Assembly: GCF_009914755.1 (NCBI RefSeq)
Contig: NC_060926.1
Reading direction: 5' to 3' (one strand)
Source: the human T2T-CHM13v2.0 reference genome, Homo sapiens
Length of the DNA stretch: 64,000 bases
In this document: piece after piece, positions 1 through 32,109 of the stretch
How positions within the stretch are numbered: the stretch's first letter is position 1
How the letters are laid out: each line of letters begins with the position of its first letter
Made by a program: the position numbers and the translations under genes
Notes under the pieces: generated by a model
Told to the model about the DNA's origin: nothing
What the model saw: only the letters and a program-made list of their open reading frames with translations
Database searches by the model: none

Positions 1-960
1 AAAGGTTCATTAGTAGAAATATCACTGTTAGATTATAAAGCACATTTGCTTTCAAAAAATTTTTTAAAAAATGAATATATTGTTAGGAGACTAAAAAATT
101 CATGTAGCAAATTTGAAAAGAAGTTTGTATAAAAATGTAGTTATTTTAAATTAAAAACTCAAAAATGAACTCATCAGATTAGACATGGCCAAGGTGAGAG
201 TTCATAAATATTTCAGAATGCATTACAGAAAATTTTGAAAAATGTAAAATGTGGACAGAATGATGAAGAGACATGGAAGATACAGTGAGAAAGTGTAGCA
301 TGTGTTTAGAGAGTGTTCTCATAGAAGAAGGGAACTGGGAAGGGACAATGTGTGTTGGTATTTTGTCTGAAAGTTCCCTAGACCTTTGTAAGACACTGAT
401 CTGCATATTCAAAAACTCCATGCATGCTAAGCAAGCTACAATGGAGATAAACCTACACCTATGTATCTCCTAGAGAAATAGTAAACACCCATGAAGGGAA
501 AAATATTTCAATTAGCACTAGAAAAATGAAATTACTTTTAATCATATTGAAATCTGAAAAAATGAAAGGTAAAATAAACAATATTATTTGTTAAGAATAA
601 TAATGCCATTCTGAATTTCTAAACGAAGAAAAATATTCATCAACCTGTGGCTAAATAACATATTTAGAGACAAAAAACAAAACGCAACCAGCAGAATTCC
701 ACTAAAGAAACTAAAGAGAAACTCTGAAAATATGCTTCAGAAAGGTTGAAGTTCTGAAATCAAAGAATGAACACAGAGTAAAATATATTGTAAACATACA
801 GATAGAACAAATAAGAAACTGGATGTTGAAACAAAAATATATTTAAAATTAGATAAGCACTGCAATATGTATGATAAAAAGAAAATTATTAGGGCTGAAG
901 TACTCAAAGAAATCTTAATTGTCTGACAAGTGCAGAAAAGTGAGTATGACTTTGCAACTC
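1..960 (+). mobile_element. Ancient L1 (L1M-type) ORF1-region fragment
   Basis: A-rich strand. ORF 273..473 (EDTVRKCSMCLESVLIEEG...ILSESSLDLCKTL) resembles degenerate L1 ORF1p (DTIKRSNI..IGVPE...IMAENFPNL). Confidence 0.55.
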
Positions 961-971
961 CTTTTCTTCTT

Positions 972-1230
972 CGAATGGAAAGGAATGGAATGGAATGGAA
1001 TGGAATGGAATGGAATGGAATGGAATCAAATGGAATTGAATGGAGAGGAATGGAATGGAATGGGAGATGAGATTGTGCCATTGTGTTACACAATGGGTGA
1101 AAGAATGATACACTCTCGAAAGAAAGGAATGGAATGGAATGCAATGGAGTGGAGTGGAGAGGAGAGGAGTGGAATGGAGTGGAATGGAATCAGATGTAAT
1201 GGAATGTAGTGGAATGGAATGGAATGGAAT
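972..1230 (+). repeat. (GGAAT)n simple repeat, HSat3-like border with GGAGT/GGAGA variants
   Basis: Near-pure GGAAT pentamers at about 982-1026 and 1126-1230. Confidence 0.95.
1062..1125 (+). mobile_element. Degenerate Alu 3'-end fragment embedded in (GGAAT)n
   Basis: gggagatgagattgtgccattgtgttacacaatgggtgaaagaatgatacactctcgaaagaaag aligns by eye to the Alu right-arm end (gtgagccgagattgcgccactgcactccagcctgggtgacagagtgagactctgtctc + A tail). Confidence 0.7.
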
Positions 1231-4200
1231 CATCATCGAATGGAATAGAATGGAATTATCATCGAATGGAATCAAATGGAAACACCATCGAATGGAAACG
1301 AATGGAGTCATCATTGAATGGAATCAAAAGGCATCATCATCCAATGGACTTGAATGGAATCATCATCGAATGGAATTGGATGGAATAATCATTGAATGGA
1401 ATCGAACGGAATCATCATCAAATGGAATTGAATGGAATCATCATTGAATGGAATCGAATGGAATCATCAACAAATGTAATCGAATGGAATCATCGAATGG
1501 AATCTAAAGGAACCATCATCAAATGGAACTGAATGGAATCATCATTAAATGGAACCGAACAGAGTAATCAGCAAATGGAATCAAATGGACTCATGATCAA
1601 ATGGAATCGAATGGACTCATGATCAAATGGAATCGAATGGAATCATCATCGTATGGAATCAAATTGAATCAATGAATTGAATCGAATGGAAAGATCACCG
1701 AATGGAATTGAAGGGAATCATCGAAAGGGATCAAATGGAATCATCAAAGGGAAACGAATGGAATCATCGAATGGATTCGGATGGAATCATCAGCGAATGG
1801 AATTGAATGGAATCATGGAATAGACTCGAATGGAGTCATCATTAAATGGAATCCAATGGAATCATCGAATGAACATGAATAGAATCGTCATTGAATGGAA
1901 TCGAATGGAATCATCGAATGGCATCGAATGGAATCATCATAGAATGGAATCTAATGGAATCATTGAATGGACTCGAATGGAATAATCGAATGGGCTTGAG
2001 TGGAATCATCATCAAATGGAATCGAATGGAATCATCAAATGGACTCGAATGGAATCATCGTCAAATGGAATCGAATGGAATCATCATCAAATGGAATCGA
2101 ATGGAATCATCATCGAATGGAATCGAACGGAGTCATCATCAAATGGAGTCACCAAATTGAATCTAATGGAATGATCATCAAAGACAATCGAAGGGAAACA
2201 TCGAATGGGATTGAACGGAGTCATCAAATGGAATCGATAGGAATCATCAAATGGATTCAAATGGAATCATCATCGAATGGAAACGAACTGAATCATCGAA
2301 TGGACACGAATGGAATCATCATCAAATAGGATTGAATGGAATCATCGAATGGCATCGAATGGAATCACCATTGAATGGAATCGAATGGAATCATCGAATG
2401 GCATCGAATGGAATCATCATCGAATAAAATCAAATGGAATAATCGAATGTACTCGAATGGAATCATCAAATGGATTTGAGAGGAATCATCATCGAATGGA
2501 ATTAAATAGAATCATCAAATGGACTCGAATGGAATCTTCATTGAATGGAATCGAATGGAATCATTGAATGGAGTCGAATGGAATCATCAGCAAATGGAAT
2601 CGAATGGAATCATTGAATAGCAACGAATGGAATCATCATCGAATGGAATCGAATGGAATCATCAAATGAACTCGAATGCAATCATCATAGAATGGAATCG
2701 AATGGAATCTTTGAATGGACCTGAATGGAATCATCATCGAATGCAAACGAATGGAATCATCATCAAATGGAAGCACATGGAAATATCAAATGGAAAAGAA
2801 TTGAATAATCATAGAAAGGAATTGAATAGAATCATCGAATGAAACCGAATGGAATCATCATCGAATATAATTGAAAACAATCATCAAATCGATTCGAATG
2901 GAATCATCAAATGGACTCAAATGGAATCATCACAGAATGAAATGAAATGGAATCATCGAATGGACTCGAATGGAATGGTCATCGAATGGAATCAAATGGA
3001 ATTATCGAATAGAATTGAATGGAATCATCATCGAATAGAATTGAATGCAATCATCGAATGTACTCGAATGGAATCATCATCAAATTGTATCCAATGGAAT
3101 CATTGAATAGAATCGAATGTATTCATCATCAAAAGAAATCACATTGAATTATCGAGTGGACTCGAATGGAATCATCATCGAATGGAATAGAATGGAATCA
3201 TCGAATCCACTCGAATGGAATCAACTTTGAATGGAATGGAATGGAATCATCAAAGGGATTCGAATGGAATCATCATCGAATGAAATCGTATGTAATCATC
3301 GAATGGAATCATCATTGAATGGAATCGAATGGAGTGATCTAACGAACTTGAATGGAATCATCATCAAATGGAATCGAATGGAAACATTGAATGGACACGA
3401 ATCGAACTGTTATCGAATGGAATCGAAGGGAATTATCATCAGATGGAATCGAATAGGATAATCATCGAATGGAATCACTGAATGGAATAGAATAGAATCA
3501 TCTCCGAATGGAAACAAAAGAATCATCGAATGAATTCAAATGGAATCATCATTGAATGGAATCGAATGGAATCATCATCAAATGGAATCAAATAGAATCA
3601 TCATCAAACGGAAGGGAAAGGAATCATTGAATGGACTCAAATGGAATCATCATCGAATGGAATTTAATATAATCTTCGAATGGACATGAATGGAATCATC
3701 ATCAAATGGAACTGAATAAAATCTTCGAATGCACTCGAATGGAAACATCATAGAATCCAATCGAATGGAATCATCATCGAATAGAATCAAAAGGAATCAT
3801 CATCGAAAGGAATCGAATGGAATCCTCGAATGGAATAGAATTGAATCATCATCAAATGGAATCGAATAAAATCATTGAATGAAATTGAATGGAATCATCA
3901 TCGAATGGAATCATCATCAAATGGAATCGAATCAAATAATCAAATGGAATCGAATTGAATCATCAACGAATGGAATCAAATGGAATCATCGAATGGAATC
4001 CCATGTGATTATCATTGAATTGAACCCAATGGAATCATTGCATGGACTCGAAATGAATCATCGAATAGACTCAATTGGAATCATCATTGAATGGAATAGA
4101 AAGGAATCATCGAACGGAAACGAATGGAATCATCATTGAATGAAATCAAATGGAATCATCATATGGACTCGAATGGAATCATCATCGAACGGAATTGAAA

Positions 4201-7200
4201 GCAGTCGTCGAATGGTCTCGAATGGAATCATCATCAAATGAAATCAAAAGGAATCATTGAATGGACTCGAATGGAATCTTCATCGAATGGAATCGAATGG
4301 AATCATCAAATGGACACTAATGGAATCACCATCCAATGGAATCGAAAGGAATCATCGAATGGAATCGAATAGAATCTTCATTGAATAGCATCGAATGGAA
4401 ACATCATTGAATGGAATCTAATGATATTATCATCAAAAGGAATCGAATGGAGTCATCATCTAATGAAATCGAATAGAATTAACAAGGAATGGAATCGAAT
4501 GGAGAAATCGAATGGAATCCATTGGAATCATCATTGAATGGAACCGAGTGTAGTCATCAGGGAATGGAATCGAATGGAATCAAAGAAGGGACTCGAATGG
4601 AACCATCATTGAATGGAATTGGATGGAATCATTGAATGGGCTCGAATGGAATCATCGAATGGGCTGTAATGGAATCATCATCAAATGGAATCAAATGGAA
4701 TCGAATGGAACCTTCGAATGGAATCTAATGGAATCATCATTGATTGGAATCGAATGGAATCATCAAATGGACTCGAATGGAATCATTGAATGCACTCGAA
4801 TGGAATCATCATCGAATGGAATCGAGTGGAATCCTCAAATGGAATCAAATGGAATCATCAATTGGTATCGAATGCAATCATCATCGAATGGAATCGAATG
4901 GAATCATCGAATGGAATAAAACACAAACATCATCAAAAGGAATCGAATAGAATCATCATCGAATAGAATCAAATGGAATCATCAAATAGAATCAAATGGA
5001 ATCATTGTCAAGTTTAATCGAGTGGAATCATCAAATGAAATCGAGTGGAATCATTGTTGAATGGAATGGAATGGAATCAATGAATAGAAATGAATGGAAT
5101 CACCAATGAATGGAATCGAATGGAATCATCATCGTATGGAATTGAATGGAATCATCGAATGGATTCAAACGGAATCATCATTGAATGGAATCACATGGAA
5201 TCATCATCGAATGGAATCACACGGAATCGTCATCGACGGGAACTGAGTGGAATGAAATTTGGACTCGAATGGAATCATCAAATGGACTCGAAGGGAAGCG
5301 TTGAATGGACTCGATTGGAATCATCATCGAATGGAATCAAAGGGAATCATCGAATGGAATCGAATGGAATCATCATTGAACGAAATCGAATTTACTCATC
5401 TAATGCACTAGAATGGAATCATCATCGAATAGAATTGAAAGAAATCATAGAATGGACTCGAATGGAATCATCATAATATGAAATTGCATTGAATCTTCGA
5501 ATGGACTCAAATGGAGTCATCATCGAATGGAATCGAATGGATTCATTGAATGGACTCGAATGCAATAATCATTGAAAGGAATGGAAAGGAATCATCAAAC
5601 GAAATCAATGGAATCTTCATCGAATGAAATCAAATGGAATAATCAAATGGCAGTGAATGGAATCATCATCGAATGGAATCACATGGAATCATCTAACGGA
5701 CACAAGTGGAATGATCATCAAATGGAATCGAATGGAAACATTGAATGGACACAAACGGAATCATCACCGAATGGAATCGAATGGAATCATAATCAAATGG
5801 AATTGAATAGAATAATCATTGAATGGAATCGAAAGGAATCATCGAACAGAAAAGAATGGAATCATCATCGAATGGAATCAAATAGAATCATCGAATGAAA
5901 TAAAATGGAATCATCATCGAATGGAATCGAATGGCATCATCATTGAATGGAATCGAATGGAATAATCATCGAATGTAATTGAATGTAATTATCATTGAAA
6001 GGAATTGAATGGATTCATCATCTAATGGAACCAGAGTCATCATCAAATGGAATTGCATGGAATCATAATCGAATGGAATTGAATGGAATCGAATGGAATC
6101 TTCAAATGGACTCAAATGCAATCATCGACTGAGCTTCAATGGAATCATCATGGAATGGAATCAAATGTAATCATCAAATGGACTCGAATGGAATCATCAT
6201 CAAATGGAATCAGATGGAATCATCGAATGGATTTGAATGGAATCATCGAATGGACTTGAATGCAATCCTCATTGAATGGAATTGAATGGAATAATCGAAT
6301 AGTCTCAAATGGAATCATCATCGAATGGAATTGAATGGAATCATCATCGAAAGAAATCGAATGGAATCATCGAATGGACTCGAATGGAATCATCATCAAA
6401 TGAAATTGCATTGAATCTTCGAATGGAATCAAATGGAGTCATCATCGAAAGGACTCGAATGGAAGAATCATCGAACAGAATGGAAAGGAATCATCAAAAG
6501 ATATCAATGGAATCATCATCGAATGAAATCAAATGGAATAATCAAATGGCACCGAATGGAATCATCATCAAATGGAATCAAATGGAATCATCTAACGGAC
6601 TCAAGTGGAATACGTATCGAATGAAATCGAATGGAAACATTGAATGGAACAAATGGAATCATCATCGAATGGAATCGAATGTAATCATCATCAAATGTAA
6701 TCGAATAGAATCATCATCGAATGGAATCGAATGGAATCATCAAACGGAATAGAATGGAATCATCAACGAATGGAATCAAATAGAATCCTCGAATAAAATA
6801 AAATGGAATAATCATCGAATGGAATCGAATGGCATCAACATCGAATGGAATTGAATGGAATCATCTTTGAAAGGAATCGAATGGATTCATCATCAAATGG
6901 AACCGAACAGAGTCATCATTGAATGCAACTGACTGGAATCGTAATCAAATGAAATCGAATGGAATCTTCGAATTGACTCAAATGCAATCATTGACTGGGC
7001 TTCAATGGAATCATCATGGAATGGAATTGAATGTAATCATCGAATGGACTCGAATGAAATCATCATCAAATGGAATCAGATGACTTGAAATGGACTTGAA
7101 TGGAATCATCTAATGGACACGAATGGAATCATCATCGAATGGAATCGAATGGAATCATTGAATGGAATCGAATGGAATCATCTAATGGACATGAATGGAA

Positions 7201-8568
7201 TCATCATTGAATGGAATTGAATGGTATCATCGAATGGTCTTGAATGGAATCATCATCAAATGGAATCGAATAAAATCGGCATGAATACAATCGAATGGAG
7301 TCATCATTGAATGGAATCGAACAGAATCATCATCAAATAGAATCGAATGGGATCATCGAATGAAACAGAATGGAATCATCATCAAAAGGAATGAAAGTAA
7401 AACGAAGAATGGAATACAACAGACTCATTGAATGGAATTGAATGGAATCATCATTGAAAGGACTCGAATGGAGTTATCATCGAATGGAATTGAATGGAAT
7501 CATTTAATGGACTCGAATGGAATCAACTTCGAGTGGAAACAAAAGGAAACATCTAATGGACTTGAATGGAATCATCACCTAATGGAATCGAATGGAATCA
7601 TCAGCAAATGGAATCGAAAGGAATCATCATGGAATAGAATTGAATGGAAACATCGAATGGAATGGAATGGAGTCATCATGGAAAGGAATCGAAGGGAATC
7701 ATCAAATAGAATCAAACTGAATCATTGAATGGAATCGAATGGAATCATCATCAAATGGACTTGAATGCAATTATCATCAAAAGGAATCAAATGGAATCAT
7801 CGAATGGACTCGAATGGAATAATCGAATGGACTTCAATGGAATCATCAAATGGAATTGAATGGAATCATCGAATGGACTCGAATGGAATCATCATCAAAT
7901 GAAATTGGATGGAATCAATGAATGGATTCAAATGGAATCATCAAATGGACACAAATGGAATCATCACTGAATAGAATCACATGGAATCAACATGAAATGG
8001 AATTGAATAGAATCATCATTGAATGGAATCATATGGAATCATTGCACGGAAGAGAATGGAATCATCATCGAAAGGAATCAAATAGAATCATCGAATGAAA
8101 TCAAACGGAGTCATCATCAAATGGAATCGAATGGAATCATCATCGAATGTAATTGAATGGAATCATCATTTAAAGGAATCGAATGGATTCATCATCAAAT
8201 GGAACCGAACAGAGTCATCATCGAATGGAATTGAATGGAATCATCATCGAATGGAATCGAATGGAATCTTCGAATTGACTCGAATGCAATCATCGACTGG
8301 GCTTCAATGGAATCATCATGGAATGGAATCGAATGGAATCATCAAATGGACCCGAATGGAATCAACATCGAATGGAATCGAATGGAATCATCATCGAATG
8401 GAATATAATGGAATCATCATCAAATGGAAAAGAATGGAATCATCAACGAATGGAATCAAATGGAGAAATCGAACGAAATCCGTTGGAATCATCATCATAT
8501 GGAACCGAATGCAGTCATCATTGAATGGAATCGAATGGAATCATCAAATGGATTAGAAGGGAATCATT
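1231..8568 (+). repeat. HSat2 (HSATII) satellite, GAATG strand on top
   Basis: Diverged 23/26-bp units such as gaatggaatcatcatcgaatggaatc and gaatggactc, rich in TCGA; typical of HSat2. Confidence 0.93.
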
Positions 8569-11500
8569 AGATTCCATTCGATGATGATTCCATTAGGGTC
8601 CATTTGATGATTCCATTCGAGACCATTGGATAATTCCATTCGAGTCCATTTGATGATTCCATTCTAGTCCATTCGATGATTCCATCTGATTCCATTAGAT
8701 GATGATTCCATTCGAGTTCATTCGATCATTCCATTTGATTCCATTTGATGATTCCATTTGAGTCCATTCAATTATTCCATTCGAGTCCATTCAATTATTC
8801 CATTCGAGTCCATTCGATGATTCCATTCAATTCCATTCGATGATAATTGCATTCGAGTCCATTTGATGATGATTCTATTCGATTCCATTCGATGATGACT
8901 GCCTTCGTTTCCATTCGAGGATGATTCCAGCAGATTCCATTCGATTTCTCCATTTGATTCCATTCATTGATGATTCCATTCGATTCCATTAGATGATGAT
9001 TCCATTAGATTCCATTTGATGACTATTCCATTTGATTCCATTCAATGATGATTCCATTCGTGTCCATTCAATGATTCCATTCAATTTCATTCGATGATGA
9101 TCCCATTCGAGTCCATTCAATGATTCCATTCAAGTCCATTTGATGATTCCTTTCAATTCCATTCGATGATGATTCCATTCGAGTCCATTCGATGATTCCA
9201 TTTGATTTCATTTGATGATTCCATTCCATTCGATTCGATGATTCCATTCTATTCCATTCCATGATGATTCTGTTCGAGTCCATTCGATAATGATTCCATT
9301 TGATTTCATTCGATGATTCTATACGATGGTGACTCAATTCTATTACATTGGATGATTCCATTCGATTCCATTTGATGATGATTCCATTCGATTCCATTCG
9401 ATGATGATTCCATTTGATTCCATTCGATTATTATTCCACTCGATTTCATTCGATGATTCTATTCGATTCCATTCAACGATGATTCAATTATGTTCCATTA
9501 GATGATTCCTTTTTATTCCATTAGATGATGATTCCATTCGATTCCAAATTATGATTATTCCATTCAATTCCACTCAATGATGATTTCATTCGATTTCATT
9601 CGATGATTCTATTTGATTCCATTCAATGATGATACAATTATATTCCATTGGATGATTCCATTCAATTCCATTCGATGATTGTTCCATTCGATTCCATTCG
9701 ATGATGACTCCATTCGATTGCATTCGATGAAAATTTCAATCGAGTCCTTTCATAGATTCCATTCGATACCATTCGATGATGATTCCATTTGAATCCATTA
9801 GATGATTTCATTCCATTCCATTCAATGATGATTCCATTAGATGCCATTCAATGATTTCCTTCGATCCCATTCGATGATGATTCCATTCAAGTCCATTCGA
9901 TGATTCCATTAGATTCCATTTGACAATGATTCCATTCGAGTCCATTTGATGATTCAATTCGATTCCATTCTATGATTCCATTTGATTCCATTCGATGATA
10001 ATTCCATTGGAGTCCATTCGAAGATTCCATACGATGATGATTCCACTCGAGTCCTTTCCATGATTCCATTCGAGTCCATTTGATTCTTCCCTTAGGTGCC
10101 ATTCATTGATGATGCTATTCAATGCCATTCAATGATTCCATTTGACTCCATTCGATGATGTTTCCATTCGAGTCCATTCGATGATTCCACTTGAGTCCAT
10201 TCAATGACACCATTCGATTCAATTCTATAATGATTCCATTCGAGTCCATTCAATGATGATTCCATTCGAATCCATTCGATGATTCCATTCGGTTCTATTT
10301 GATGATGATTCCATGGGATTCCATTTGATGAATCCATTCTATTCCACTCGTTGATGATTCCATTTGATACCATTTGATGATGATTCCATTCGATTCTCTT
10401 AATTGATGCTTCCAATTGATTCCATTCGATAATGATTCCATTCGACTCCATTCGATGGTGATTCCATTCGATTTCATTTGATGGTTTCATTTGATTCCTT
10501 TCGATGATGATTCCATTCGATTCCATTTGATGATTCCATGCGATGCCATTAGATGATGGTTCCATTTGTTTCCATTCGATGATTCCATTTGATTCCATTC
10601 GATGATGAGCCATTCAATTCAATTCCATCATGATTCCATTTGATTCAATTCAATGATGTTTCCATTCGATTCCATTCGATGATGATTCCATTAGATTGCA
10701 TTCAACGATGATTCCATTCGAGTCCATTCATTGATGATTCCATTTGAGTCCGTTCATTAATGATTACTTTGGATTTCATGCGATGCTTCTATTTGATTCC
10801 ATTCGATGATGATTCCATCTCATTCCATTCAATGAGTCCATTCGATTCCATTCAGTGATGATTCCATTCGATTCCACCAGATGATGATTTAATTTGATTC
10901 CATTCAAAGATGATTCCCTTAGAGTCCATTAGATGATTCCATTTGTGTCCAATCGGTGATTCCATTTGATTCCATTCAATGATGATTCCATTAGAGTCCA
11001 TTCGATGATTCCATTCGATTTCATTTGACACTGATTCCATTCGAGTCCATTTGATGATTCCATTCAATTCCAATTGATGATGACTCCATTCGAGTCGTTT
11101 CGATGATTCCATTTGATATCATTCGATGATGATTCCATTCGAGTCCATTCGATGAATCCATTCGATTCCATTCGATGATGACTCCATTCAAGTCAGTTAG
11201 ATGATTCCATATGATTCCATTCGATGATCATTCCATTCGAGTACATTCAATGATTCCATTTGATTTTATTCGATGATGATTCCATTCGATTCCACTCAAT
11301 GATGATTCCATTTGTGTGCATTCAATGATTCCCTTTAATTCCATTTGATGATGATTCCATTCGAGTCCATTCAGTGATTCCATTTGATTCCATTCGATGA
11401 TGATTGCATTCGAGTCCATTGGATGATTACATTCGATTCCATTCGATGACGATTCCATTCGAGTCCATTCAGTGATTCCATGTGATTCCATTCGATGCTG

Positions 11501-13540: not shown

Positions 13541-13659
13541 ACTGCATTCGGTTCCATCTGATGATTCCAATGGATTTCATTCGGTTTCTCCATTTGATTC
13601 CATTCGTTGATGATTCCATTCTTTTCCATTTGATGATGATTGCATTCTATTCCATTCGA

Positions 13660-16600
13660 TGATGATTCCATTCGATTCCATTCGATGGTGATTCCATTCG
13701 GGTCCATTCGATGATTCCATTCGATTCCATTCGATGATGATTCCATTCGAGTACATTCAATGATTCCATTTAAGTCCATTCGAAGATTACTTTCATTTCC
13801 ATTTGATGATTCCATTTGAGTCCATTCGATGATTCCGTTCAAGTCCATTCAATGTTTTCTTTTGATTCCAATCAATATTGATTCCATTTGAGTCCATTCG
13901 ATGATTCCATTCGAGTGCATTCCATGATGATTCCATTCGAGTCCATTTGATGATTCCATTTGATTTCATTTGGTGATGATTCCATTTGATTCCATTCGAT
14001 GATTCCATTCAAGTCCATTCATTGATTATATTCGAGTCCATTAAATGATTTCATTCGTTTCCATTCGATGATGACTCCATTCGAGTCCATTCAAGGATGA
14101 TTCCAGAAGATTCCATTCGATGATAACGTTGGATTCCATTCTTTGTTTCATTTCGATACATTTTGGTGATGATTCCGTTTGATTTCATTTGATGATCCCA
14201 TTCGATTCTATTTGATGATGATTCCATTCGATTCCATTGGATGAAAATTCCATTCATTTCCATTCATTGATGATTCCATTCTATTCTATTCGATGCTGAT
14301 TCTATTCAATTCCATTCAACGATGATTCCATTCGATTTCATTCGATGATGATTCCTTTCGAGACCATTCGATGATTCCATTCACTTCATTCGATGATGAT
14401 TCCATTCAATTCCATTAGATGATTCCATTAGAATCCATTTGATGACGATTCCATTCGATTCCATTCGATGATGATTCCATACGATTCCATTGGATGATGA
14501 CTCCTTTCATTTCCATTCGATGATTATTCCTTTCGACTCCATTTGATGTTGATTCTTTCAATTCCGTTTGATGATGTTTCCATTTGATTCCATTCGATGA
14601 TGATTCCATTCCATTCCATTCGATGATTCCATTCAATTCCATTAGATGATGATTCCATTAGAGTCCATTCAATGATTCCATTCGATTCCATTCTATGATA
14701 ATTCCATTGGAGTCCATTCGATGATTCTATTTGATTCTATTCAATAATGATTCCATTCGAGTCCATTCGATGATTGCTTTTGAGTCTATTCGAAGATTCC
14801 ATTCAATACCATTCAATGATGTTTCCATTCCAGTCCATTCAATAATTCCATCCGATTCCATTCGATGATGTCTGCACTCAGTTCCATTTGATGATGATTC
14901 CAATGGATTCCATTCAATGACACCATTCGATTCCATTCATTGATGATTCCATTCGATTCCATTCGATTATGATTACATTCAATTCCATTCGATGATGATT
15001 TCATTGGATTCCATTCCATGATGATTCCATTCGATTCCATTCAATGATGATTCCATTCAATTCCATTTGATGAAAATTCCATTCAATTCCATTCGATGAT
15101 GATTCCATTCGATTCTATTTGATGCTGACTCTATTCGATTCATTTGGATGATGATTCCATTCGATTCCATTTGATGATTCCATTCGATTCCATTCAATTA
15201 TGATTCCATTCGAGACCGTTCGATGATTCCATTCAATTCTATTCAATGGTGATTCCATTCGAGTCCATTCGATGATTCCATTCAAGTCCATTCTATGATT
15301 CCATCTCTTTCCATTCAATGATGATTCCATTCGATGATGATTCCATTCGATTCCATTCAATGATGATTCCATTGGATTCCATTCGATGATTCCATTCGAT
15401 TCCATTTGATGGTGATTCCATTCGGGTTCATTCGATGATTCCATTCGATTCCATTCGATGATGATTCCATTTGAGTACATTCAATGATTCCATTTAAGTC
15501 CATTCTAAGATTACTTTCAATTCCATTTGATGATTCCATTTGAGTCCATTCGATGATTCCATTCAAGTCCATTCGATGTTTTCTTTCGATTCCACTCGAT
15601 ATTGATTCCATTTGAGTCCGTTCGATGATTCCATTCAAGTGCATTCCATGATTTCATTCGACTCCATTCGATGATCATTCCATTCGAGTCCATTCGATGA
15701 TTCCATTTGATTTCATTCGGTGATGATTCCATTCGATTCCTTTCGATGATTCCATTCAAGTCCATTCATTGATTACATTCGAGTCCATTAAATGATTCCA
15801 TTCGTTTCCATTCGATGATGACTCCATTCGAGTCCATTCAATGATGATTCCAGTCGATTCCATTCGATGATAACGTTGGATTCCATTCTTTGTTTTTTTT
15901 TCGATTCATTTTGGTGATGATTCCGTTTGATTTCATTTGATGATCCCATTCGATTCTATTTGATGATGATTCCATTCGATTGCATTGGATGAAAATTCCA
16001 TTCGTTTCCATTCATTGATGATTCCATTCGATTTTATTCGATGCTGATTCTATTCAATTCCATTCGACGATGATTCCATTCGATTTCATTCGATGATGAT
16101 TGCTTTCGAGACCATTCGATGATTCCATTCACTTCATTCGATGATGATTCTATTCAATTCCATTAGATGATTCCATTAGAATGCATTTGGTGATGATTCC
16201 ATTCGATTCCATTTGATGATGATTCCATACGATTCCATTGGATGATGACTCCTTTCATTTCCATTCGAAGATTATTCCTTTCGACTCCATTTGATGTTGA
16301 TTCTTTCAATTCCGTTTGATGATATTTCCATTTGATTCCATTCGATGATGATTCCATTCCATTCCATTCGATGATTCCGTTCAATTCCATTAGATGATGA
16401 TTCCATTAGAGTCCATTCAATGATTCCATTCGATTCCATTCTATGATAATTCCATTGGAGTCCATTCGATGATTCTATTTGATACTATTCAATAATGATT
16501 CCATTCGAGTCCATTCGATGATTGCTTTTGAGTCTATTCGAAGATTCCATTCGATACCATTCAATGATGATTCCATTCCAGTCCATTCGATAATTCCATC

Positions 16601-17055
16601 CGATTCCATTCGATGATGTCTGCATTCGGTTCCATTTGATGATGATTCCAACTGATTCCATTCGATGACACCATTCGATTCCATTCATTGATGATTCCAT
16701 TCGATTCCATTCGATTATGATTACATTCAATTCCATTCGATGATGATTTCATTGGATTCCATTCCATGGTGATTCCATTCGATTCCATTCAATGATGATT
16801 CCATTCAATTCCATTTGATGAAAATTCCATTCAATTCCATTCGATGATGATTCCATTCGATTCTATTCGATGCCGACTCTATTCGATTCATTTGGATGAT
16901 GATTCCATTCGATTCCATTCGATTATGATTCCATTCGAGACCGTTTGATGATTCCATTCAATTCTATTCAATGGTGATTCCATTCGAGTCCATTCGATGA
17001 TTCCATTCAAGTCCATTCTATGATTCCATCTGTTTCCATTCGATGATGATTCCAT
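13660..17055. repeat. Two tandem copies of a ~1.73-1.75 kb HSat2 higher-order unit
   Basis: ORFs 14415..14642/16163..16390 and 14727..14936/16475..16684 are near-identical at offset 1748; the offset is 1724-1725 at either end. Confidence 0.92.
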
Positions 17056-17141
17056 TCGAGCCCATTCGATGATTCCACTCGATTCCATTCCATGATGATT
17101 CCATTGAAGCACATTTGATGATTGCATTCGTTCCATTTGAT

Positions 17142-20100
17142 GATTCCATTCGATTCCATTCGATGATGATTCCATTCAATTCCATTCGATGATGACTCTG
17201 TTCGGTTCCATTTGATGATGAATCCATTCGATTCCTTTAAATGATGATTCCATTCAATTACATTCGATGATGATTCCATTCGATTCCATTTGATGATGAC
17301 TCCGTTTGATTTCATTCGATGATTCTATTTGATTCCTTTCGATGATGATTCCATTCTCTTCCGTGCAATGATTCCATATGATTCCATTCAATGATGATTC
17401 TATTCAATTCCATTTCATGTTGATTCCATGTGATTCTATTCAGTGATGATTCCATTTGTGTCCATTTGATGATTCCATTTGAATCCATTCATTGATTCCA
17501 TCCAATTTCATTTGATGATGATTCCATTCGAGTCCATTCGATGATTCCATTCAATTCCATTTGATGATTCCATTGAAGTCCATTCGATTATTCCATTCGA
17601 GTCCATTCGATGATTCCATTTGATTCCTTTTGATGATAATTGCATTCAAGTCCATTTGATGATGATTCCATTCGATTCCATTCAATGATTCAGTTTGATT
17701 CTATTTGATGATTCCCTTCGATTCCTTTCCATGATGACTCCATTCCATTCCATTCGATGTTTCCATTCAATTCTATTCCATGATGATTCCTTTCGATTCC
17801 ATTTGCTGATGATTCCATTCGATTCCATTAGGTGATGATTCCATTCAAGTCCATTAGATGTTTCCTTTTGTTTCCACTCGAAGTTGATTCCATTCGAGTC
17901 CATTAAATGATTCCATTCAATTCCATTCGATGATAACTCCATTCGAGTCCTTTCAATGATGATTCCATTCAATTCCATTCAATGAGTCTGTTGTATTCCA
18001 TTCTTCGTTTTACTTTCATTCCTTTTGATGATGATTCCATTCTGTTTCATTCGATGATCCCATTCGATTCTATTTGATGATGATTCTGTTCGATTCCATT
18101 CAATGATGACTCCATTCGATTGTATTCATGCCGATTTTATTCGATTCCATTTGATGATGATTCCATTCAAGACCATTCGATGATACCATTCAATTCCATT
18201 CAATGATGATTCCATTCATGTCCATTAGATGATTCCATTCGATTCCATTCAATGATTCCATTCGATTCCATTCGATGATGATTCCATTCGTGTCCATTAG
18301 ATGATTCCATTCAAGTCCATTTCAAGTCATCTGATTCCATTTGATGATGATTTCATTCGAGTCCATTCGATGATTACATTCAATTCCATTCCATGATGAT
18401 TCCATTGAAGCCCAGTCAATGATTGCATTTGAGTCAATTCGAAGATTCCATTCGATTTCATTTGATTACGATTCCAGTCAGTTGCATTCAATGATGACTC
18501 TGTTCGGTTCCATTTGATGATGAATCCATTCGATTCCTTTCAAAGATGATTCCATTCAATTCCATTCGATGTTGATGCCATTCGATTCCATTCGATGATT
18601 ATTCCATTTTATTTTATTCGAGGATTCTATTTGATTCCATTCGTTGATGATTCCATTCTATTCCGTTTGATGATTCCATTCGATTCCATTCGATGATGAT
18701 TCTATTCGATTACATTTGATGATGATTACATTCGATTCCATTCGATGATGATTCCATTTGTTCCATTCAATGTTTCCATTCGATTTCATTCGATACGTAT
18801 TCCACTTGAGTCCGTTAGATGATTCCATTTGATTCCATTTGATGATGATTCCATTCGGTGCCATTTGATTATTCCATTTGATTTCATTCGATGATGATTC
18901 CATTGATATCTTTTGATGATTCCTTTCCATTCTGTTCGATGATTCTTCCATTCGAGTCCTTTCGATGATGACTCCATTTGATTCCATTCGAAGATTCAAT
19001 GCAATTTCATTTGATGATGATTCCATTCGAGTCCATTCGATGATTCCATTCGATTTCTTTCGATGATGATTCCATTCAATTCCATTCGATGATGATTCCA
19101 TTTGAGACTATTCGATTATTCCATTCAATTCCATTCAATGAGGATTGCATTCAAGTCCATTCGATGATTCCATTCAAATCCATTCGATGATTCCATCTGA
19201 TTCCATTTGATGATGATTCCATTCGAGTCCATTTGATGATTACATTTGATTCCATTCCATGATGATTCCATTGAAGCTCAGTCGATGATTGCATTTGAGT
19301 CCATTTGAAGATTCCATTCGATTCCATTCAATTCCATTCGATTATGATTCCATGCAATTCCATTTGATGATGACTCTGGTTCCATTAGATGATGAATCCA
19401 TTCAATTCCTTTCAATGATAATTACATTCAATTACATTCGATGATTATTCCATTCGATTCCATTCAATGATGATGCCATTCGATTCCATTCGATGATGAT
19501 TCCATTTTATTTCATTCGATGATTCTATTTGATTCCATTCGATGATGATTCCATTCTTTTCTGTTCGATGATTCCTTTCGATTCCATTCAATGATTATTC
19601 TATTCAATTCCATTTGATTATGATTCCATTCGATTCCATTCGGTGATGATTCCGTTTGTGTCCATTCAATGTTTCCATTCGATTCCATTTGATGATCATT
19701 CCACTTGTGTCCGTTAGATGATTCCATGTGATTCCATTCGATGATGATTCCATTCACTGCCATTTGATTATTCCATTTGATTTCATTCGATGAAGATTCC
19801 ATTGATTTCGTTTGATGATTCCTTTCCATTCCTTTCAATGATTATTGCATTCGAGTCCATTCAATGAATCCATTCGATTCCATTCGATGATGACTCCATT
19901 TGAGTCCATTCGAAGATTCAATGCAATTTCATATTATGATGATTCCATTCGAGTCCATTCTATGATTTCTTTCAATTCTATTCGATGATGATTCCATTCT
20001 AGTGCATTAGATGAGTAAATTCGATTTCGTTCAATGATGATTCCATTCGATTCCATTCGATGATTCCCTTTGATTCCATTCGATGATGATTCCAATCGAG

Positions 20101-23100
20101 TCCATTCAACGCTTCCCTTCGAGTCCATTTGATGATTCCATTCGAGTCCAAATTTCATTCCACTCAGTTCCCGTCGATGACGATTCCGTGTGATTCCATT
20201 CGATGATGATTCCATGTGATTCCATTCAATGATGATTCCGTTTGAATCCATTCGATGATTCCATTCAATTCCATACGATGATGATTCCATTCGATTCCAT
20301 TCATTGGTGATTCCATTCATTTCTATTCATTGATTCCATTCCATTCCATTCAACAATGATTCCACTCGATTTCATTTGATGATTCCACTCGATTAAACTT
20401 GACAATGATTCCATTTGATTCTATTTGATGATTCCATTTGATTCTATTCGATGATGATTCTATTCGATTCCTTTTGATGATGTTTGTGTTTTATTCCATT
20501 CGATGATTCCATTCGATTCCATTCGATGATGATTGCATTCGATACCAATTGATGATTCCATTTGATTCCATTTGAGGATTCCACTCGATTCCATTCGATG
20601 ATGATTCCATTCGAGTGCATTCAATGATTCCATTCGAGTCCATTTGATGATTCCATTCGATTCCAATCAATGATGATTCCATTAGATTCCATTCGAAGGT
20701 TCCATTCGATTCCATTTGATTCCATTTGATGATGATTCCATTACAGCCCATTCGATGATTCCATTCGAGCCCATTCAATGATTCCATCCAATTCCATTCA
20801 ATGATGGTTCCATTCGAGTCCCTTCTTTGATTCCATTCGATTCCATTCCCTGATGACTACACTCGGTTCCATTCAATGATGATTCCAATGGATTCCATTC
20901 GATTTCTCCATTCGATTCCATTCCTTGTTAATTCTATTCGATTTCATTAGATGATGACTCCATTCGATTCCTTTTGATGATAATATCATTAGATTCCATT
21001 CAATGATGTTTCCATTCGATGCTATTCAATGAAGATTCTATTCGATTCCATTCGATGATTCCTTTCGATTCCATTGGATGGTGATTCCATTAGTGTCCAT
21101 TTGATGATTCCATTCGATTCCATTCGATGAAGATTCCATTCGAGTCCATTCAATGATTCCTTTTGATTTCATTTGATGATGATTCCATTCGAGACCATTC
21201 GACGACTGCTTTCAATTCCGTTCGATGATGATTCCATTCGAGTCCATATGATGATTCCATTTGATTTCATTCAATGATGATTCCATTCGTTTCCGTTCGA
21301 TGATTCCTTTCTATTCCATTCAATGATGATTCCAATTGAGTCTATTCGATGATTCATTTCGAGTCCATGCAATGATTCCATTGGGTTCAATTCAATGATA
21401 ATCACATGGGATTCCATTCGATGATTCCATTTGATTCCATTCGTTGATGATTCAATTCGATTCCATTTGATTATTTGATTCGATTCCATTTGATGATGAT
21501 TCCATTCGATGATGATTCCATTCAATTTCATTCAATGATTTTATTCGATTCCATTTGATGATGATTCAATTCTATTCCATTCGAGGATTCCATTCGATTC
21601 CTTTCGATGATGATTCCTTTTGATTCTATTCGATGATGATTCCATTCGATTGGATTCTATGATGTTTCCATTCGAGTGCATTCGAAGATTTTATTCAGTT
21701 CCATTTGATGATGATTCCATTCATGTCCATTCGAAGATTATATTAAATTCCATTCGATGATGATTCCATTTGAGTCCATTCAATGATTCCTTTCCCTTCC
21801 GTTTGATGATGATTCTATTTGATTCCATTTGATGATGATTCCATTCGATTCCATTCAATGATGATTCCATTTGAATTCATTCGATGATTCTTTTGTTTCC
21901 ATTCGGAGATGATTCTATTCTATTCCATTCAGTGATTCCATTCGATGATTATCCTATTCGATTCCATCTGATGATAATTCCCTTCGATTCCATTCGATAA
22001 CAGTTCGATTCGTGTCCATTCAATGTTTCCATTCGATTCCATTTGATGATGATTCCATTCAAGTTCGTTAGATCACTCCATTCGATTCCATTCAATGATG
22101 ATTCCATTCGATGATTACATACGATTTCATTCGATGATGATTCCATTCGAATCCCTTTGATGATTCCATTCCATTCCATTCAAAGTTGATTCCATTCGAG
22201 TGGATTCGATGATTCCATTCTATTCCATTCGATGATGATTCCATTCGAGTCCACTCGATAATTCAATGTGATTTCTTTTGATGATGAATACATTCGATTC
22301 TATTCAATGATTCCATTGGATACAATTTGATGATGATTCCATTCGAGTACATTCGATGATTGCATTCAATTCTATTCGATGATGATTCCATTCAATTCTA
22401 TTCGATAATTCCATTTGATTCCATTCGATGACCATTCCATTCGAGTCCATTCGATGATTCCATTTCATTTCATTCTGTGATGATTCCATTTGAGTCCATT
22501 TGATGATTCCATTCGAATCGATTTGATGATTGTTTTCAATTATATTCGATGATGATTCCATTCGGTTTCATTCGATGATTCTATTCAATTCCTTTCTATG
22601 ATTATTCAATTCTTTTCCATTTGATATTTCCATGTGCTTCCATTTGATGATGATTCCATTCGTTTGCATTCGATGATGATTCCATTCAGGTCCATTCAAA
22701 GATTCCATTCGATTCCATTCTATGATGATTGCATTCGAGTTCATTTGATGATTCCATTCGATTCCATTCGATGATGATTCCATTCGTTGCTATTCAATGA
22801 TTCCATTCGATTCCATTTGCTGATGATTCCATTCGACTCCATTCAATGATTCCATTCGATTCCATTCAATGAAGATTCCATTCGAGTCCATTTGATGATT
22901 CTATTTAATTCCATTCGATGATGATTCCTCTCAAATCCATTTGATGATTCCATTCGAGTACATTCGATTATTCCATTTGATTTTATTCGATGATGATTCC
23001 ATTCGATGCCATTCGATGATTCCATTCGATTCCATTCAATGGTGATTCCATTCGATGCCATTCGATGATTCCATTCAATCCTATTTGATGATGATTCCAT

Positions 23101-25409
23101 TCGTGTCCATTCGATGATTCAGTTCGTTTCCATTCGATGATGATTCCATTTGAATCCATTTGATGATTCCTATCGATTCCATTTGATGACTCCGTTCAAT
23201 CCCATTCGATGTTTCCCTTCGATTGTCTTTGATGATCATTCCATTAGATTCAATTTGGTGACTCCATTTGATGATGACTCCGTTCGATTCCATTCGATGA
23301 TGATTCCATTCGATTCCATTTGATGATGATTCCATTCGATTCCATTTGACGATGATTCCATTCGAGTCCATTTGATGATTCCATTCGATTCCATTTGATG
23401 ATGATTCCACTCAAGCCCATTCGATTATTCCATTCGAGTCCATTCAATGATTCCATTAGATTCCATTCTATGATGATTCCATTCGATGCCATTCGATGAT
23501 TCCATTCGATTCCATTCAATGACGATTCTATTCATGTTCATTCGATGATTCCATTGGATTCCATTTAATGATGACTCCATTCGAGTCTATTCCATGATTC
23601 CATTCAATTCCATTCGCTGATGATTCCATCCGAATCCATTCGATGATTCCATTCGTTTCCCTTTGATGATTCCATTTGATCCCTTTCGATGATTCCCTTC
23701 AATTCCATTCGGTGATCTTTCCATTCGATTCAATTCATTGATTCAATTTGATTCCATACGATGATGATTCCATTCGATTCCATTTGATCATGAGTCCATT
23801 CGATTCCATTTGATCATGAGTCCATTTGATTCCATTTGCTGATTACTCTGTTCGGTTCCATTTAATGATGATTCCATTCAGTTCCATTTGATGATGGTTC
23901 CTTTAGATTCCATTCGATGATTCCATTCGATTACATTTGTTGATGATTCCATTCGATTCCATTCAATGATGATTCCATTCAATTCCATTTGATGATGATT
24001 CCGTTCGATTCCATTCAATGATTATTCCATCCAATTCCATTCGATGATGATTCCATTCAAGTCCATTGGATGATGATGCCTTTTGATTCCATTCAATGAT
24101 GACTCCATTCGTTTCCATTCGATGGTGTTTCCATTTGATTCCATTCGATGATAATTCCATTCTATTCCATTCGATGATGATTCCATTCCATTCCATTCCA
24201 CTACATTCCATTACATCTGATTCCATTCCACTCCATTCCACTCCTCTCCTCTCCACTCCACTCCATTGCATTCCATTCCATTCCTTTCTTTCGAGAGTGT
24301 ATCATTCTTTCACCCATTGTGTAACACAATGGCACAATCTCATCTCCCATTCCATTCCATTCCTCTCCATTCAATTCCATTTGATTCCATTCCATTCCAT
24401 TCCATTCCATTCCATTCCATTCCATTCCTTTCCATTCGAAGAAGAAAAGGAGTTGCAAAGTCATACTCACTTTTCTGCACTTGTCAGACAATTAAGATTT
24501 CTTTGAGTACTTCAGCCCTAATAATTTTCTTTTTATCATACATATTGCAGTGCTTATCTAATTTTAAATATATTTTTGTTTCAACATCCAGTTTCTTATT
24601 TGTTCTATCTGTATGTTTACAATATATTTTACTCTGTGTTCATTCTTTGATTTCAGAACTTCAACCTTTCTGAAGCATATTTTCAGAGTTTCTCTTTAGT
24701 TTCTTTAGTGGAATTCTGCTGGTTGCGTTTTGTTTTTTGTCTCTAAATATGTTATTTAGCCACAGGTTGATGAATATTTTTCTTCGTTTAGAAATTCAGA
24801 ATGGCATTATTATTCTTAACAAATAATATTGTTTATTTTACCTTTCATTTTTTCAGATTTCAATATGATTAAAAGTAATTTCATTTTTCTAGTGCTAATT
24901 GAAATATTTTTCCCTTCATGGGTGTTTACTATTTCTCTAGGAGATACATAGGTGTAGGTTTATCTCCATTGTAGCTTGCTTAGCATGCATGGAGTTTTTG
25001 AATATGCAGATCAGTGTCTTACAAAGGTCTAGGGAACTTTCAGACAAAATACCAACACACATTGTCCCTTCCCAGTTCCCTTCTTCTATGAGAACACTCT
25101 CTAAACACATGCTACACTTTCTCACTGTATCTTCCATGTCTCTTCATCATTCTGTCCACATTTTACATTTTTCAAAATTTTCTGTAATGCATTCTGAAAT
25201 ATTTATGAACTCTCACCTTGGCCATGTCTAATCTGATGAGTTCATTTTTGAGTTTTTAATTTAAAATAACTACATTTTTATACAAACTTCTTTTCAAATT
25301 TGCTACATGAATTTTTTAGTCTCCTAACAATATATTCATTTTTTAAAAAATTTTTTGAAAGCAAATGTGCTTTATAATCTAACAGTGATATTTCTACTAA
25401 TGAACCTTT
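17142..25409 (-). repeat. Right arm of the inverted duplication (reverse complement of 1-8268)
   Basis: Same mirrored ORF set with a constant coordinate sum, so no net indel between the arms; spot checks at both ends match. Confidence 0.97.
24180..24438 (-). repeat. (ATTCC)n border with embedded Alu fragment (24285-24348); mirror of 972-1230
   Basis: Reverse complement of the left border. Confidence 0.95.
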
Positions 25410-32105: not shown

Positions 32106-32109
32106 CTAA

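What the first reader, a model, noticed from the sequence alone, without database searches (positions are those of the whole stretch)
1..25409. Giant satellite-cored palindrome with apparently identical arms of at least 8.27 kb
Seen: 1-8268 and 17142-25409 are reverse complements with no net indel. Even the (GGAAT)n tract lengths appear to agree, and 20 ORF pairs translate identically. I did not compare every base. Neighbouring HSat2 duplications are visibly diverged, so the arm identity stands out. Inference: a very recent inverted duplication, ongoing arm-to-arm gene conversion, or an assembly/fold-back artefact. The arm reaches the window edge, so the KSR1 pseudogene and L1 may also be mirrored upstream.
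Basis: partly seen in the sequence, partly recalled or inferred. Interest (0 to 1): 0.8.

Follow-up and report, generated by a model that had tools for sequence, protein, structure and literature searches.

The report
Centre of the human IGK palindrome
This is the exact middle of the long-known mirror-image duplication of the human antibody kappa light-chain gene region: two roughly megabase-long arms meet at a 9-kb satellite spacer and are letter-for-letter identical for about 40 kb on each side.

Summary
1-8268 and the reverse complement of 17142-25409 differ at 0 of 8,268 bases. With 200 kb of upstream sequence added, identity stays perfect to window 55961 (38.8 kb). The first substitution is at 59195. 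Mirror partners persist at 99.8-100% out to 450 kb and at about 99.2%, 94-96% and 97.9% at 600, 750 and 900 kb. V-kappa exons lie in the outer left arm. So this is the symmetry centre (window 12705, chr2:89,850,705) of the known proximal/distal IGK inverted duplication. The "800-kb gap" between the V clusters is itself mirrored. Only 8,873 bp of HSat2 (8269-17141) is unpaired. Arm divergence rises with distance from the centre, from under 7e-5 to about 4e-4, 1.2e-3 and 1-2%. I favour arm-to-arm homogenisation over simple youth. An assembly artefact cannot be excluded without reads. Unexpectedly, the inner roughly 200 kb of arm occurs four times on 2p11, as two HSat2-cored inverted modules. The entity is already known. 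The spacer, the gradient and the four-copy layout were not found in the papers I searched.

The parts
1..8268 (-). Innermost 8.27 kb of the left (telomeric, IGKC-side) palindrome arm. It continues leftward beyond the window.
   Evidence: 0/8,268 mismatches to the reverse complement of 17142-25409. It continues to at least window -38,591 with 3 substitutions and 1 indel in 46,859 bp. Sampled probes extend it much further.
8269..17141 (.). Unpaired spacer, 8,873 bp, made entirely of HSat2-type satellite. Its centre, 12705, is the symmetry axis (chr2:89,850,705).
   Evidence: Ungapped inverted identity on the arm axis is 0.25. TRF rows cover it with period 26/49. HSat2B signature hits occur throughout.
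17142..64000 (+). Right (centromeric, distal-cluster-side) palindrome arm. It runs to the window end and beyond.
   Evidence: Probes right of the window still find mirror partners.
17142..55961 (+). Tract of perfect arm identity (38,820 bp). There is no substitution until 59195 (42,053 bp).
   Evidence: first ungapped mismatch at 55962. (indel in the C-run at 55953-55962; substitutions at 59195, 59865, 59956).
1212..8567 (+). HSat2 block read on the GGAAT strand. It covers the left-arm satellite plus about 300 bp of the spacer.
   Evidence: TRF period 26/49. All 27 signature hits up to 8558 are on the minus strand. GGAAT/ATTCC counts agree.
8565..24198 (+). HSat2 block read on the ATTCC strand. 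It covers most of the spacer and runs on, without a strand change, into the right-arm satellite.
   Evidence: TRF. All 55 signature hits from 8639 onward are on the plus strand. GC and AT skew flip near 8-10 kb.
8558..8639 (.). Satellite strand-switch point. It lies about 300 bp inside the spacer, not at the arm boundary and not at the symmetry axis.
   Evidence: A local inverted repeat 8217-8546 / 8867-9196 (87%) flanks it.
43073..45118 (-). Predicted gene LOC124905939 (FLJ46347-like) in a GC-rich island. Its mirror LOC124905938 lies at -19708..-17663.
   Evidence: Hub annotation. Both pairs of ends sum to 25410, the arm axis. GC is 0.50-0.56 at 42-46 kb. 0 Pfam families in the 6 ORFs scanned.
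49130..53882 (+). Broken L1 element inside the arm, and therefore also mirrored.
   Evidence: Pfam hits to Transposase_22, Tnp_22_dsRBD, Exo_endo_phos and RVT_1 in separate ORFs.

Best explanation
The feature is the centre of the human immunoglobulin-kappa (IGK) proximal/distal inverted duplication as assembled in T2T-CHM13. It is one palindrome with arms of about 0.9 Mb. They meet at an 8,873-bp unpaired HSat2 spacer (window 8269-17141; axis at 12705).

Shown:
- The arms are identical for 38.8 kb next to the spacer.
- Mirror partners continue through the whole stretch that the literature treats as an 800-kb separation between the two V clusters, and on into the V clusters.
- Arm divergence increases with distance from the centre.

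Inferred:
- The inner identity is maintained by intrachromatid arm-to-arm sequence transfer (gene conversion or long-tract break-induced copying). This is more frequent, or more recent, the closer the two partner sites lie, that is, near the centre.
- Transfer stops where homology stops, at the satellite spacer. That would explain the sharp 100% to about 80% step at 8268|8269 and 17141|17142.
- The spacer is asymmetric: its satellite runs on into the right arm and changes strand about 300 bp inside the left boundary. This is what an inverted template switch or fold-back between oppositely oriented HSat2 blocks would leave.
- Because the arms are identical for about 39 kb, recombination between them should flip the spacer, so both orientations may exist in people.
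For: Identity: 0/8,268 mismatches. Perfect for 38,820 bp, with only 3 substitutions and 1 homopolymer indel in 46,859 bp.

Extent, from 2-kb probes:
- w64001: 100%.
- w80001: 1 mismatch plus 42 gap positions.
- w100001: 99.9%.
- w200001: 99.95%.
- w220001: 100%.
- w300001 and w450001: 99.8%.
- w600001: 3534 of 3608 bits, about 0.8% divergence.
- w750001: 94-96%, partial.
- w900001: 3419 bits, about 2.1%.
- All partners are on the opposite strand and roughly colinear, with axis sums running from 25,410 to about 65,400, about 71,000 and about 89,000.

IGK identity:
- The hub annotation puts the window inside IGK (-971630..952947).
- V-kappa exons are present in left-arm loci L041, L042 and L043.
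- The literature describes two large inverted SDs, more than 98% similar, separated by a predicted 800-kb unsequenced gap (passages read).

Gradient: 0/42,053 vs 6/14,739 (p=3e-4), and those two classes pooled vs 5/3,998 (p=4e-4).

Arms do recombine: a 1.3-Mb inversion between IGKV1-27 and IGKV1D-27 and a roughly 16-kb proximal/distal gene conversion are reported.

Outgroup copies: two further copies of the same inner-arm sequence on chr2 differ from the arms by 0.3-0.6% and 0.7-1.7%, while the arms differ from each other by 0-0.1% over the same segments. So the arms are more alike than their age relative to those paralogues would give.

Spacer size: 8.9 kb lies within the 766-70,466 bp range of spacers at human fold-back inverted duplications.
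Against: - No reads were available, so the perfect identity could partly reflect a shared graph node walked twice in the assembly.
- Sampling beyond the window is sparse: 14 right-arm 2-kb probes. Four of them (w120001, w140001, w160001, w180001) fell in a tandem array, matched only at 88-98% out of register, and were left out of the counts.
- Divergences at 600-900 kb are estimated from bit scores, not alignments.
- The step between 47-209 kb and 287-439 kb is not significant alone (p=0.064). A few discrete events could mimic a gradient.
- Outer-arm divergence of about 0.8-2%, with one probe at 4-6%, equals or exceeds the recalled human-chimpanzee divergence of 1.2%. Yet the duplication is reported as human-specific. 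This is unexplained and weakens any dating.
- Inverted homology just inside the junctions (42/50 and 45/50, then 36-38/50 matched columns) is no better than the satellite background. The best partner of the spacer's left 300 bp lies elsewhere, at 13489-13784 (91.6%). So the fold-back signature is not demonstrated.
Confidence: 0.6

Rival explanations
1. One recent event rather than ongoing conversion. A single long-tract repair (break-induced replication or a second fold-back) re-copied the inner part of one arm from the other. A young inner palindrome is thus nested in an older one.
For: The identity profile can be read as plateaus: 0/42,053, about 4e-4 to 1.2e-3 out to 440 kb, and at least 0.8% in the V clusters. 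The 47-209 kb vs 287-439 kb contrast is not significant (p=0.064). The perfect tract ends abruptly, with 4 differences in the next 8 kb.
Against: At least three distinct levels are needed, so one event is not enough. Arm-arm exchange is documented as recurrent in this locus: the conversion haplotype and the inversion.
Confidence: 0.2
2. Simple youth. The whole palindrome is very young and the arms have not had time to diverge. The higher divergence in the V clusters would come from local hypermutability or conversion from neighbouring V paralogues.
For: The duplication is reported absent from chimpanzee and gorilla. The w900001 probe has 88-89% paralogues nearby that could act as donors. One V-cluster probe (w750001) is implausibly diverged at 94-96%.
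Against: Within the non-V part, divergence still differs by more than tenfold between the inner 42 kb and 287-439 kb. The arms differ by 0.3-0.6% from copy 4 but by 0-0.1% from each other.
Confidence: 0.1
3. Assembly artefact. The two arms were collapsed into one string-graph node and written out twice, or the fold-back join or the spacer orientation is wrong in T2T-CHM13.
For: HiFi reads of about 20 kb cannot span 38.8 kb of identity. The T2T paper says the 2p11 tangle needed ONT-assisted traversal. An independent assembly (HV31) broke its IGK scaffold near SDs of at least 100 kb and at least 99% identity. The first difference is a homopolymer length, a typical error class.
Against: Real substitutions between the arms were resolved just beyond the perfect tract and at every sampled distance, so the assembler did separate the arms where they differ. 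The arms differ by about 40 kb in a tandem array, which a pure collapse would not give. The inverted IGK duplication was established by physical mapping and other assemblies. HV31 and CHM13 are said to be similar in this region.
Confidence: 0.07

Closest known systems
Human IGK proximal/distal inverted segmental duplication (Zachau/Kawasaki maps; Watson 2014 preprint 10.1101/006866; Engelbrecht 2024 PMC11327106; Lefranc 2022 PMC8945572; passages read)
   Same: Same locus and the same object. There are two inverted copies carrying V-kappa genes, the distal one on the centromeric side, more than 98% similar, with documented exchange and an inversion between them.
   Different: Those papers describe two V clusters 'separated by 800 kb' or by an unsequenced gap. 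Here the separating DNA is itself mirrored at 99.8-100% wherever sampled. Only 8.9 kb of HSat2 is unpaired. The word 'palindrom' occurs 0 times in the four IGK/assembly papers I searched within.
Large sex-chromosome palindromes (Y P1-P8, X palindromes; Jackson 2021 PMC8327919, passages read)
   Same: Arms of at least 8 kb and at least 99% identity with a short spacer. Identity is attributed to arm-to-arm gene conversion. Inversions arise through arm recombination. Instability is concentrated at the centre.
   Different: This one is autosomal and human-specific, carries antigen-receptor V genes rather than testis gene families, and has a satellite spacer. Its outer arms fall below 99% in 2 of the 3 V-cluster probes.
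Fold-back inverted duplications with a single-copy spacer (Hermetz 2014 PMC3907307, passages read)
   Same: Inverted duplication around a spacer of a few kb (766-70,466 bp there, 8,873 bp here). Junctions can lie in oppositely oriented homologous repeats.
   Different: Those are de novo terminal rearrangements with a deletion. This one is interstitial and fixed. The inverted homology at the spacer ends is not above the satellite background here.
DUP-TRP/INV-DUP rearrangements mediated by inverted low-copy repeats and iterative template switches (10.1101/2023.10.02.560172 and PMC11293582; only the search listing and abstract starts were seen)
   Same: An inverted copy lies between direct copies. 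Here the inner-arm block occurs in the order direct, inverted, direct, inverted on 2p11, and a pre-existing inverted pair could have mediated the switch.
   Different: The scale is about 1 Mb, fixed in the species. The junctions were not identified, and the copy relationships ((arms, copy 4), copy 3) do not fit the simplest version.
HSat2B array between the distal IGK cluster and the chr2 centromere (Zhang 2021 PMC8363018, passages read)
   Same: Same satellite type. Their 24-nt signature, allowing up to 2 mismatches, hits the window 82 times. The arms' satellite edge is 96.5% identical to the edge of that large array.
   Different: The core here is 23 kb of diverged HSat2, against about 620-650 kb there.

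Membership tests
IGK proximal/distal inverted duplication | Lies within the IGK locus on 2p11.2 | tested here: met
   The hub annotation places the window inside IGK (-971630..952947). The axis at 12705 is near the midpoint of that span.
IGK proximal/distal inverted duplication | The two copies carry V-kappa genes and lie in opposite orientation | tested here: met
   V-kappa exons are present in the left-arm loci L041, L042 and L043. Right-arm probes at w600001, w750001 and w900001 find their best non-self match on the opposite strand in the left arm. V exons on the right arm itself were not read.
IGK proximal/distal inverted duplication | Copies more than 98% similar over most of their length (Watson 2014, citing Kawasaki) | tested here: met
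   Of the 10 in-register probes, 9 are at about 97.9-100% and one (w750001) is 94-96% and partial. Sampling is sparse.
Large near-identical palindrome (criteria in Jackson 2021: arms at least 8 kb, at least 99% identity) | Arm length at least 8 kb | tested here: met
   46.9 kb is aligned in full. Sampled mirror partners reach about 890 kb from the centre.
Large near-identical palindrome (criteria in Jackson 2021: arms at least 8 kb, at least 99% identity) | Arm-to-arm identity at least 99% | tested here: met
   At least 99.8% at every in-register probe out to 450 kb and about 99.2% at 600 kb. Below 99% at 750 and 900 kb.
Large near-identical palindrome (criteria in Jackson 2021: arms at least 8 kb, at least 99% identity) | Identity maintained by arm-to-arm gene conversion (arm divergence lower than expected from age) | tested here: inconclusive
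   The arms differ by 0-0.1% from each other but by 0.3-1.7% from two paralogous copies, and there is a distance gradient. No ape orthologue or second human haplotype was available.
Fold-back inverted duplication with spacer | Single-copy spacer between the inverted copies | tested here: met
   8,873 bp with random-level inverted identity on the arm axis.
Fold-back inverted duplication with spacer | Inverted (micro)homology between the two ends of the spacer, above chance | tested here: inconclusive
   In register, 87 of the first 100 columns match, then about 75%. Other satellite registers score as well or better.
HSat2 satellite | Diverged (GGAAT)n with 23+26 bp periodicity and the HSat2B signature | tested here: met
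   TRF periods 26 and 49. 82 signature hits at up to 2 mismatches against 0 expected, of which only 2 are exact. The subfamily was not assigned.
Assembly artefact | No reads spanning arm-spacer-arm; abnormal depth | not testable with these tools
   No read data were available. The only related information is the T2T figure legend on ONT-assisted traversal of 2p11.

The most novel reading that the evidence does not exclude
The IGK palindrome is one of two adjacent copies of an HSat2-cored inverted module. The proposed layout is tel - Vprox - [B - 23 kb HSat2 - B'] - Vdist(inverted) - [B - ~620 kb HSat2B - B'] - cen.

A pre-existing inverted pair flanking the pericentromeric HSat2B array would have templated the human-specific IGK duplication by inverted template switching. 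Since then the roughly 0.9-Mb autosomal arms would have been homogenised from the centre outwards. The resulting identity gradient spans more than two orders of magnitude. That would make it an autosomal counterpart of Y-chromosome palindromes, in which conversion rate against partner distance can be measured.
Probability: 0.3. Interest if true: 0.7.

Novelty: already known. Interest (0 to 1): 0.45.

Why it matters
The kappa locus supplies about half of the human light-chain V repertoire, and its distal half exists only because of this duplication. Knowing that the two halves form one continuous palindrome has several practical consequences:

- It explains why the innermost V pairs are hard to tell apart.
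- It explains why assemblies break here.
- It explains why megabase inversions between the clusters arise.
- It predicts a spacer-orientation polymorphism.

It also offers a rare autosomal, recently formed, megabase palindrome. In it, the dependence of arm-to-arm exchange on distance, and the way the duplication arose, can be tested directly with existing human pangenome and ape telomere-to-telomere assemblies.

Tried and rejected
- Chance or ordinary satellite similarity: rejected. Other inverted HSat2 pairs are 78-88% identical.
- A symmetric continuation of the arms into the spacer: rejected. Identity is 0.25 ungapped. A gapped alignment in register shows 84-90% over the first 100 columns and then about 75%, which is no better than other registers.
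- The strand switch as the palindrome centre: rejected. It lies at 8558-8639, about 4 kb from the axis.
- KSR1 pseudogene: not found among the 14 ORFs scanned. Only L1 domains were found.
- 10-20 kb queries against the own genome scored only 3 candidates and missed the mirror copy. 2-kb probes worked.
- A search for paralogues spanning the right spacer junction (window 16142-18141) was not scored because there were too many satellite candidates.
One 1-kb piece was obtained, but it aligned 5.4 kb from the junction. Which side of the spacer is ancestral therefore stays open.
- Probes w120001-w180001 fell in a complex tandem array and gave no orthologous alignment.
- Left-arm pieces fetched for w600001-w900001 missed the mirror by more than 4 kb. 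The mirrors were then located by search instead.
- Vollger 2022 (the T2T segmental-duplication paper) is not held. The palindrome may be catalogued there or in supplements I did not open.

Full report
**Observation**

The claimed arms are exact. 1-8268 against the reverse complement of 17142-25409 gives 0 mismatches in 8,268 positions and no indel. The repeat finder returns the same pair as the longest of 349 inverted pairs. The next 24 listed pairs, all within the same satellite, are 78-88% complementary over 328-505 nt. The arm identity is therefore not a property of the satellite. Between the arms, ungapped identity on the same axis is 0.25.

**How far the arms go**

The hub annotation already shows gene models mirrored about an axis sum of 25410 (LOC124905938/LOC124905939). 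I fetched the 200 kb upstream of the window.
- Ungapped identity is perfect from 17142 to 55961, a run of 38,820 bp.
- The first difference is a C8/C9 run.
- Up to 64000 there are only three substitutions, at 59195, 59865 and 59956.
- In total that is 3 substitutions and 1 one-base indel in 46,859 aligned bases.

Against the left arm they gave the following:
- w64001: 100%.
- w80001: 1 mismatch and 42 gap positions over 1,933 columns.
- w100001: 99.9%.
- w200001: 99.95%.
- w220001: 100%.
- w120001, w140001 and w160001 matched only at 88-92% in several registers, and w180001 at 95-98%. These four lie in a complex tandem array and were left out of all counts.
- That array spans about -112,994..-74,790 on the left and is about 40 kb longer on the right. 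The axis sum shifts from 25,410 to about 65,400.

Further out:
- w300001 and w450001 mirror at 99.8%.
- The left pieces I fetched for w600001, w750001 and w900001 missed their partners.
- Whole-genome searches then placed those partners on the opposite strand at chr2:89,307,079, 89,157,113 and 89,025,234. The scores were 3534 of 3608 bits, 96%/94% partial, and 3419 bits. The two bit scores correspond to about 0.8% and 2.1% divergence.

**What it is**

The window lies inside the annotated IGK locus (-971630..952947), and the axis (12705, chr2:89,850,705) is near its midpoint.
- The left-arm pieces L041, L042 and L043 contain V-kappa exons.
- IGK is described as two large inverted segmental duplications, more than 98% similar, with the distal copy on the centromeric side. 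They are said to be separated by 800 kb or by an unsequenced gap 'dominated by complex repeats' (passages).
- The duplication is reported absent from chimpanzee and gorilla.

The finding is therefore the centre of that duplication. What the sampled data add is that the separating DNA is itself mirrored at 99.8-100%. The whole locus is one palindrome with arms of roughly 0.9 Mb, and the only unpaired DNA is 8,873 bp (8269-17141).

**Anatomy of the centre**

- TRF shows HSat2-type satellite with periods 26 and 49. It runs from 1212 to 8567 on the GGAAT strand and from 8565 to 24198 on the ATTCC strand.
- A published HSat2B signature hits 82 times at up to 2 mismatches, against 0 expected. All 27 hits up to 8558 are on the minus strand, and all 55 from 8639 onward are on the plus strand.
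- The spacer is therefore all satellite. About 300 bp continue the left arm's orientation, and 8.5 kb run without a strand change into the right arm's satellite. The strand switch is neither at the axis nor at the arm boundary.
- Just inside the boundaries the two sides still align in register at 42/50 and 45/50 columns, then 36-38/50. Other registers do as well: the spacer's left 300 bp match 13489-13784 at 91.6%. A fold-back microhomology signature is therefore not demonstrated.
- The spacer size lies within the 766-70,466 bp range of human fold-back inverted duplications. Three of the 21 junctions sequenced in that study lay in oppositely oriented homologous repeats.

**Divergence against distance**

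Substitutions between the arms:

| Region | Substitutions / bases | Rate |
|---|---|---|
| 17142-59194 | 0 / 42,053 | 95% upper bound 7e-5 |
| 59195-64000 plus five probes to w220001 | 6 / 14,739 | 4.1e-4 |
| w300001 and w450001 | 5 / 3,998 | 1.25e-3 |
| 600 kb and 900 kb | estimated from bit scores | about 0.8% and 2.1% |

- First against second class: p=3e-4.
- First and second pooled against third: p=4e-4.
- Second against third alone: p=0.064.

I read this as homogenisation that is more frequent or more recent near the centre. It could equally be a few discrete long-tract events. Exchange between the arms is documented: a common roughly 16-kb conversion haplotype and a 1.3-Mb inversion between IGKV1-27 and IGKV1D-27.

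The outer divergence equals or exceeds the human-chimpanzee figure I recall (1.2%; not from a call). That sits oddly with a human-specific origin and remains unexplained.

**Four copies**

The inner arm sequence, which I call B, occurs four times on 2p11.

Copy 3, chr2:90.80-90.992 Mb, in the orientation of the left arm:
- It is colinear with window 24076-36909 at 98.9-99.3%.
- It also matches w60001 (3451 bits), w100001 (92%), w200001 (3528 bits) and w220001 (95%, partial).

Copy 4, chr2:about 91.61-91.76 Mb, in the orientation of the right arm:
- It matches window 33001-35000 (3562 bits), w60001 (3577 bits), w200001 (3555 bits) and w220001 (96%, partial).

Relations between the copies:
- In mismatch equivalents, the arms differ from copy 4 by 0.3-0.6% and from copy 3 by 0.9-1.7% (bit scores; one search's direct alignments give 0.7-1.1%, and 1.8% over the 1.3 kb nearest the satellite). 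Copy 3 differs from copy 4 by 1.0%.
- Copies 3 and 4 bracket about 0.62 Mb. This matches the reported roughly 650-kb HSat2B array between the distal cluster and the centromere.
- A 1-kb piece from the copy-4 edge of that array is ATTCC-strand HSat2, 96.5% identical to window 22535-23528.
- The layout is therefore V - [B - HSat2 - B'] - V' - [B - HSat2B - B'].

One scenario fits these distances. A pre-existing inverted pair around the satellite mediated an inverted template switch, in the manner of inverted-repeat-mediated DUP-TRP/INV-DUP events (abstract starts only). The left arm was later overwritten from the right arm. This is inference from a few 2-kb probes.

**Artefact question**

Points for an artefact:
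- HiFi reads of about 20 kb cannot cross 38.8 kb of identity.
- The T2T paper's figure legend says the 2p11 graph was traversed with ONT help.
- An independent assembly broke near these duplications.

Points against:
- The assembly does separate the arms wherever they differ, including a 40-kb array length difference.

Spacer orientation needs reads of at least about 40-46 kb. I could not test this.

**Novelty**

The entity is known.
- Six library searches found no paper describing the centre, the spacer, the identity gradient or the four-copy layout.
- 'palindrom' occurs 0 times in four IGK/assembly papers searched within.
- The T2T segmental-duplication paper is not held, and I opened no supplements. 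These details may be catalogued there.

Noticed in passing
L011 about 6367-6850, minus strand (window about -63,340; a mirror is expected near window +88,750, not read): A V-kappa-1-like gene about 76 kb from the palindrome centre, far from either V cluster. It has an open leader, an intron and an open V exon (Pfam V-set, E=3e-15). The recombination-signal heptamer reads CACAGCG rather than the canonical form I recall. It may be an orphon-type or newly named IGKV gene.
   Followed up: partly
Left arm, window about -112,994..-74,790; right arm about w102,000-180,000: A complex tandem array with many sub-periods from about 0.5 to 4.7 kb. It is about 40 kb longer in the right arm than in the left, and is the largest structural difference seen between the arms. 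Probe spacing suggests that copies 3 and 4 of the block also differ in array length.
   Followed up: partly
chr2:90.80-90.992 Mb (minus) and chr2:about 91.61-91.76 Mb (plus): Two further colinear copies of the inner roughly 200 kb of the arm. They flank about 0.62 Mb that matches the reported HSat2B array, so they form a second, larger-cored inverted module next to the IGK palindrome.
   Followed up: partly
chr2:94,821,899-94,823,899 (-) and 94,872,278-94,874,278 (+); chr7:58,865,076 (+) / 58,885,791 (-); chr1:128,819,094 (+) / 128,966,783 (-): The same pericentromeric duplicon recurs elsewhere as oppositely oriented pairs with equal bit scores to the query (3330/3330, 3218/3218, 3193/3193). 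This hints at further near-identical palindromes in pericentromeric DNA.
   Followed up: no
window 8217-8546 and 8867-9196: A local inverted repeat (87%, 320-nt loop) straddles the satellite strand switch. Inverted matches offset by plus and minus 1,302 bp from the main axis (pairs I4 and I23) suggest a roughly 1.3-kb higher-order period in the inner-arm HSat2.
   Followed up: no
window 42000-46000: A GC-rich island (GC 0.50-0.56) carries the predicted FLJ46347-like gene and a 102-bp tandem repeat at 43293-43477. Long ORFs are open on both strands with no Pfam family, which looks like a compositional effect rather than coding.
   Followed up: partly
window 47415-47963: An (ATGAA)-rich 13-bp-period simple satellite lies just upstream of the broken L1.
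   Followed up: no
right-arm probes w750001 and w900001: Arm divergence in the V clusters (about 2% and 4-6% in 2-kb samples) is higher than expected for a duplication said to be human-specific.
   Followed up: no
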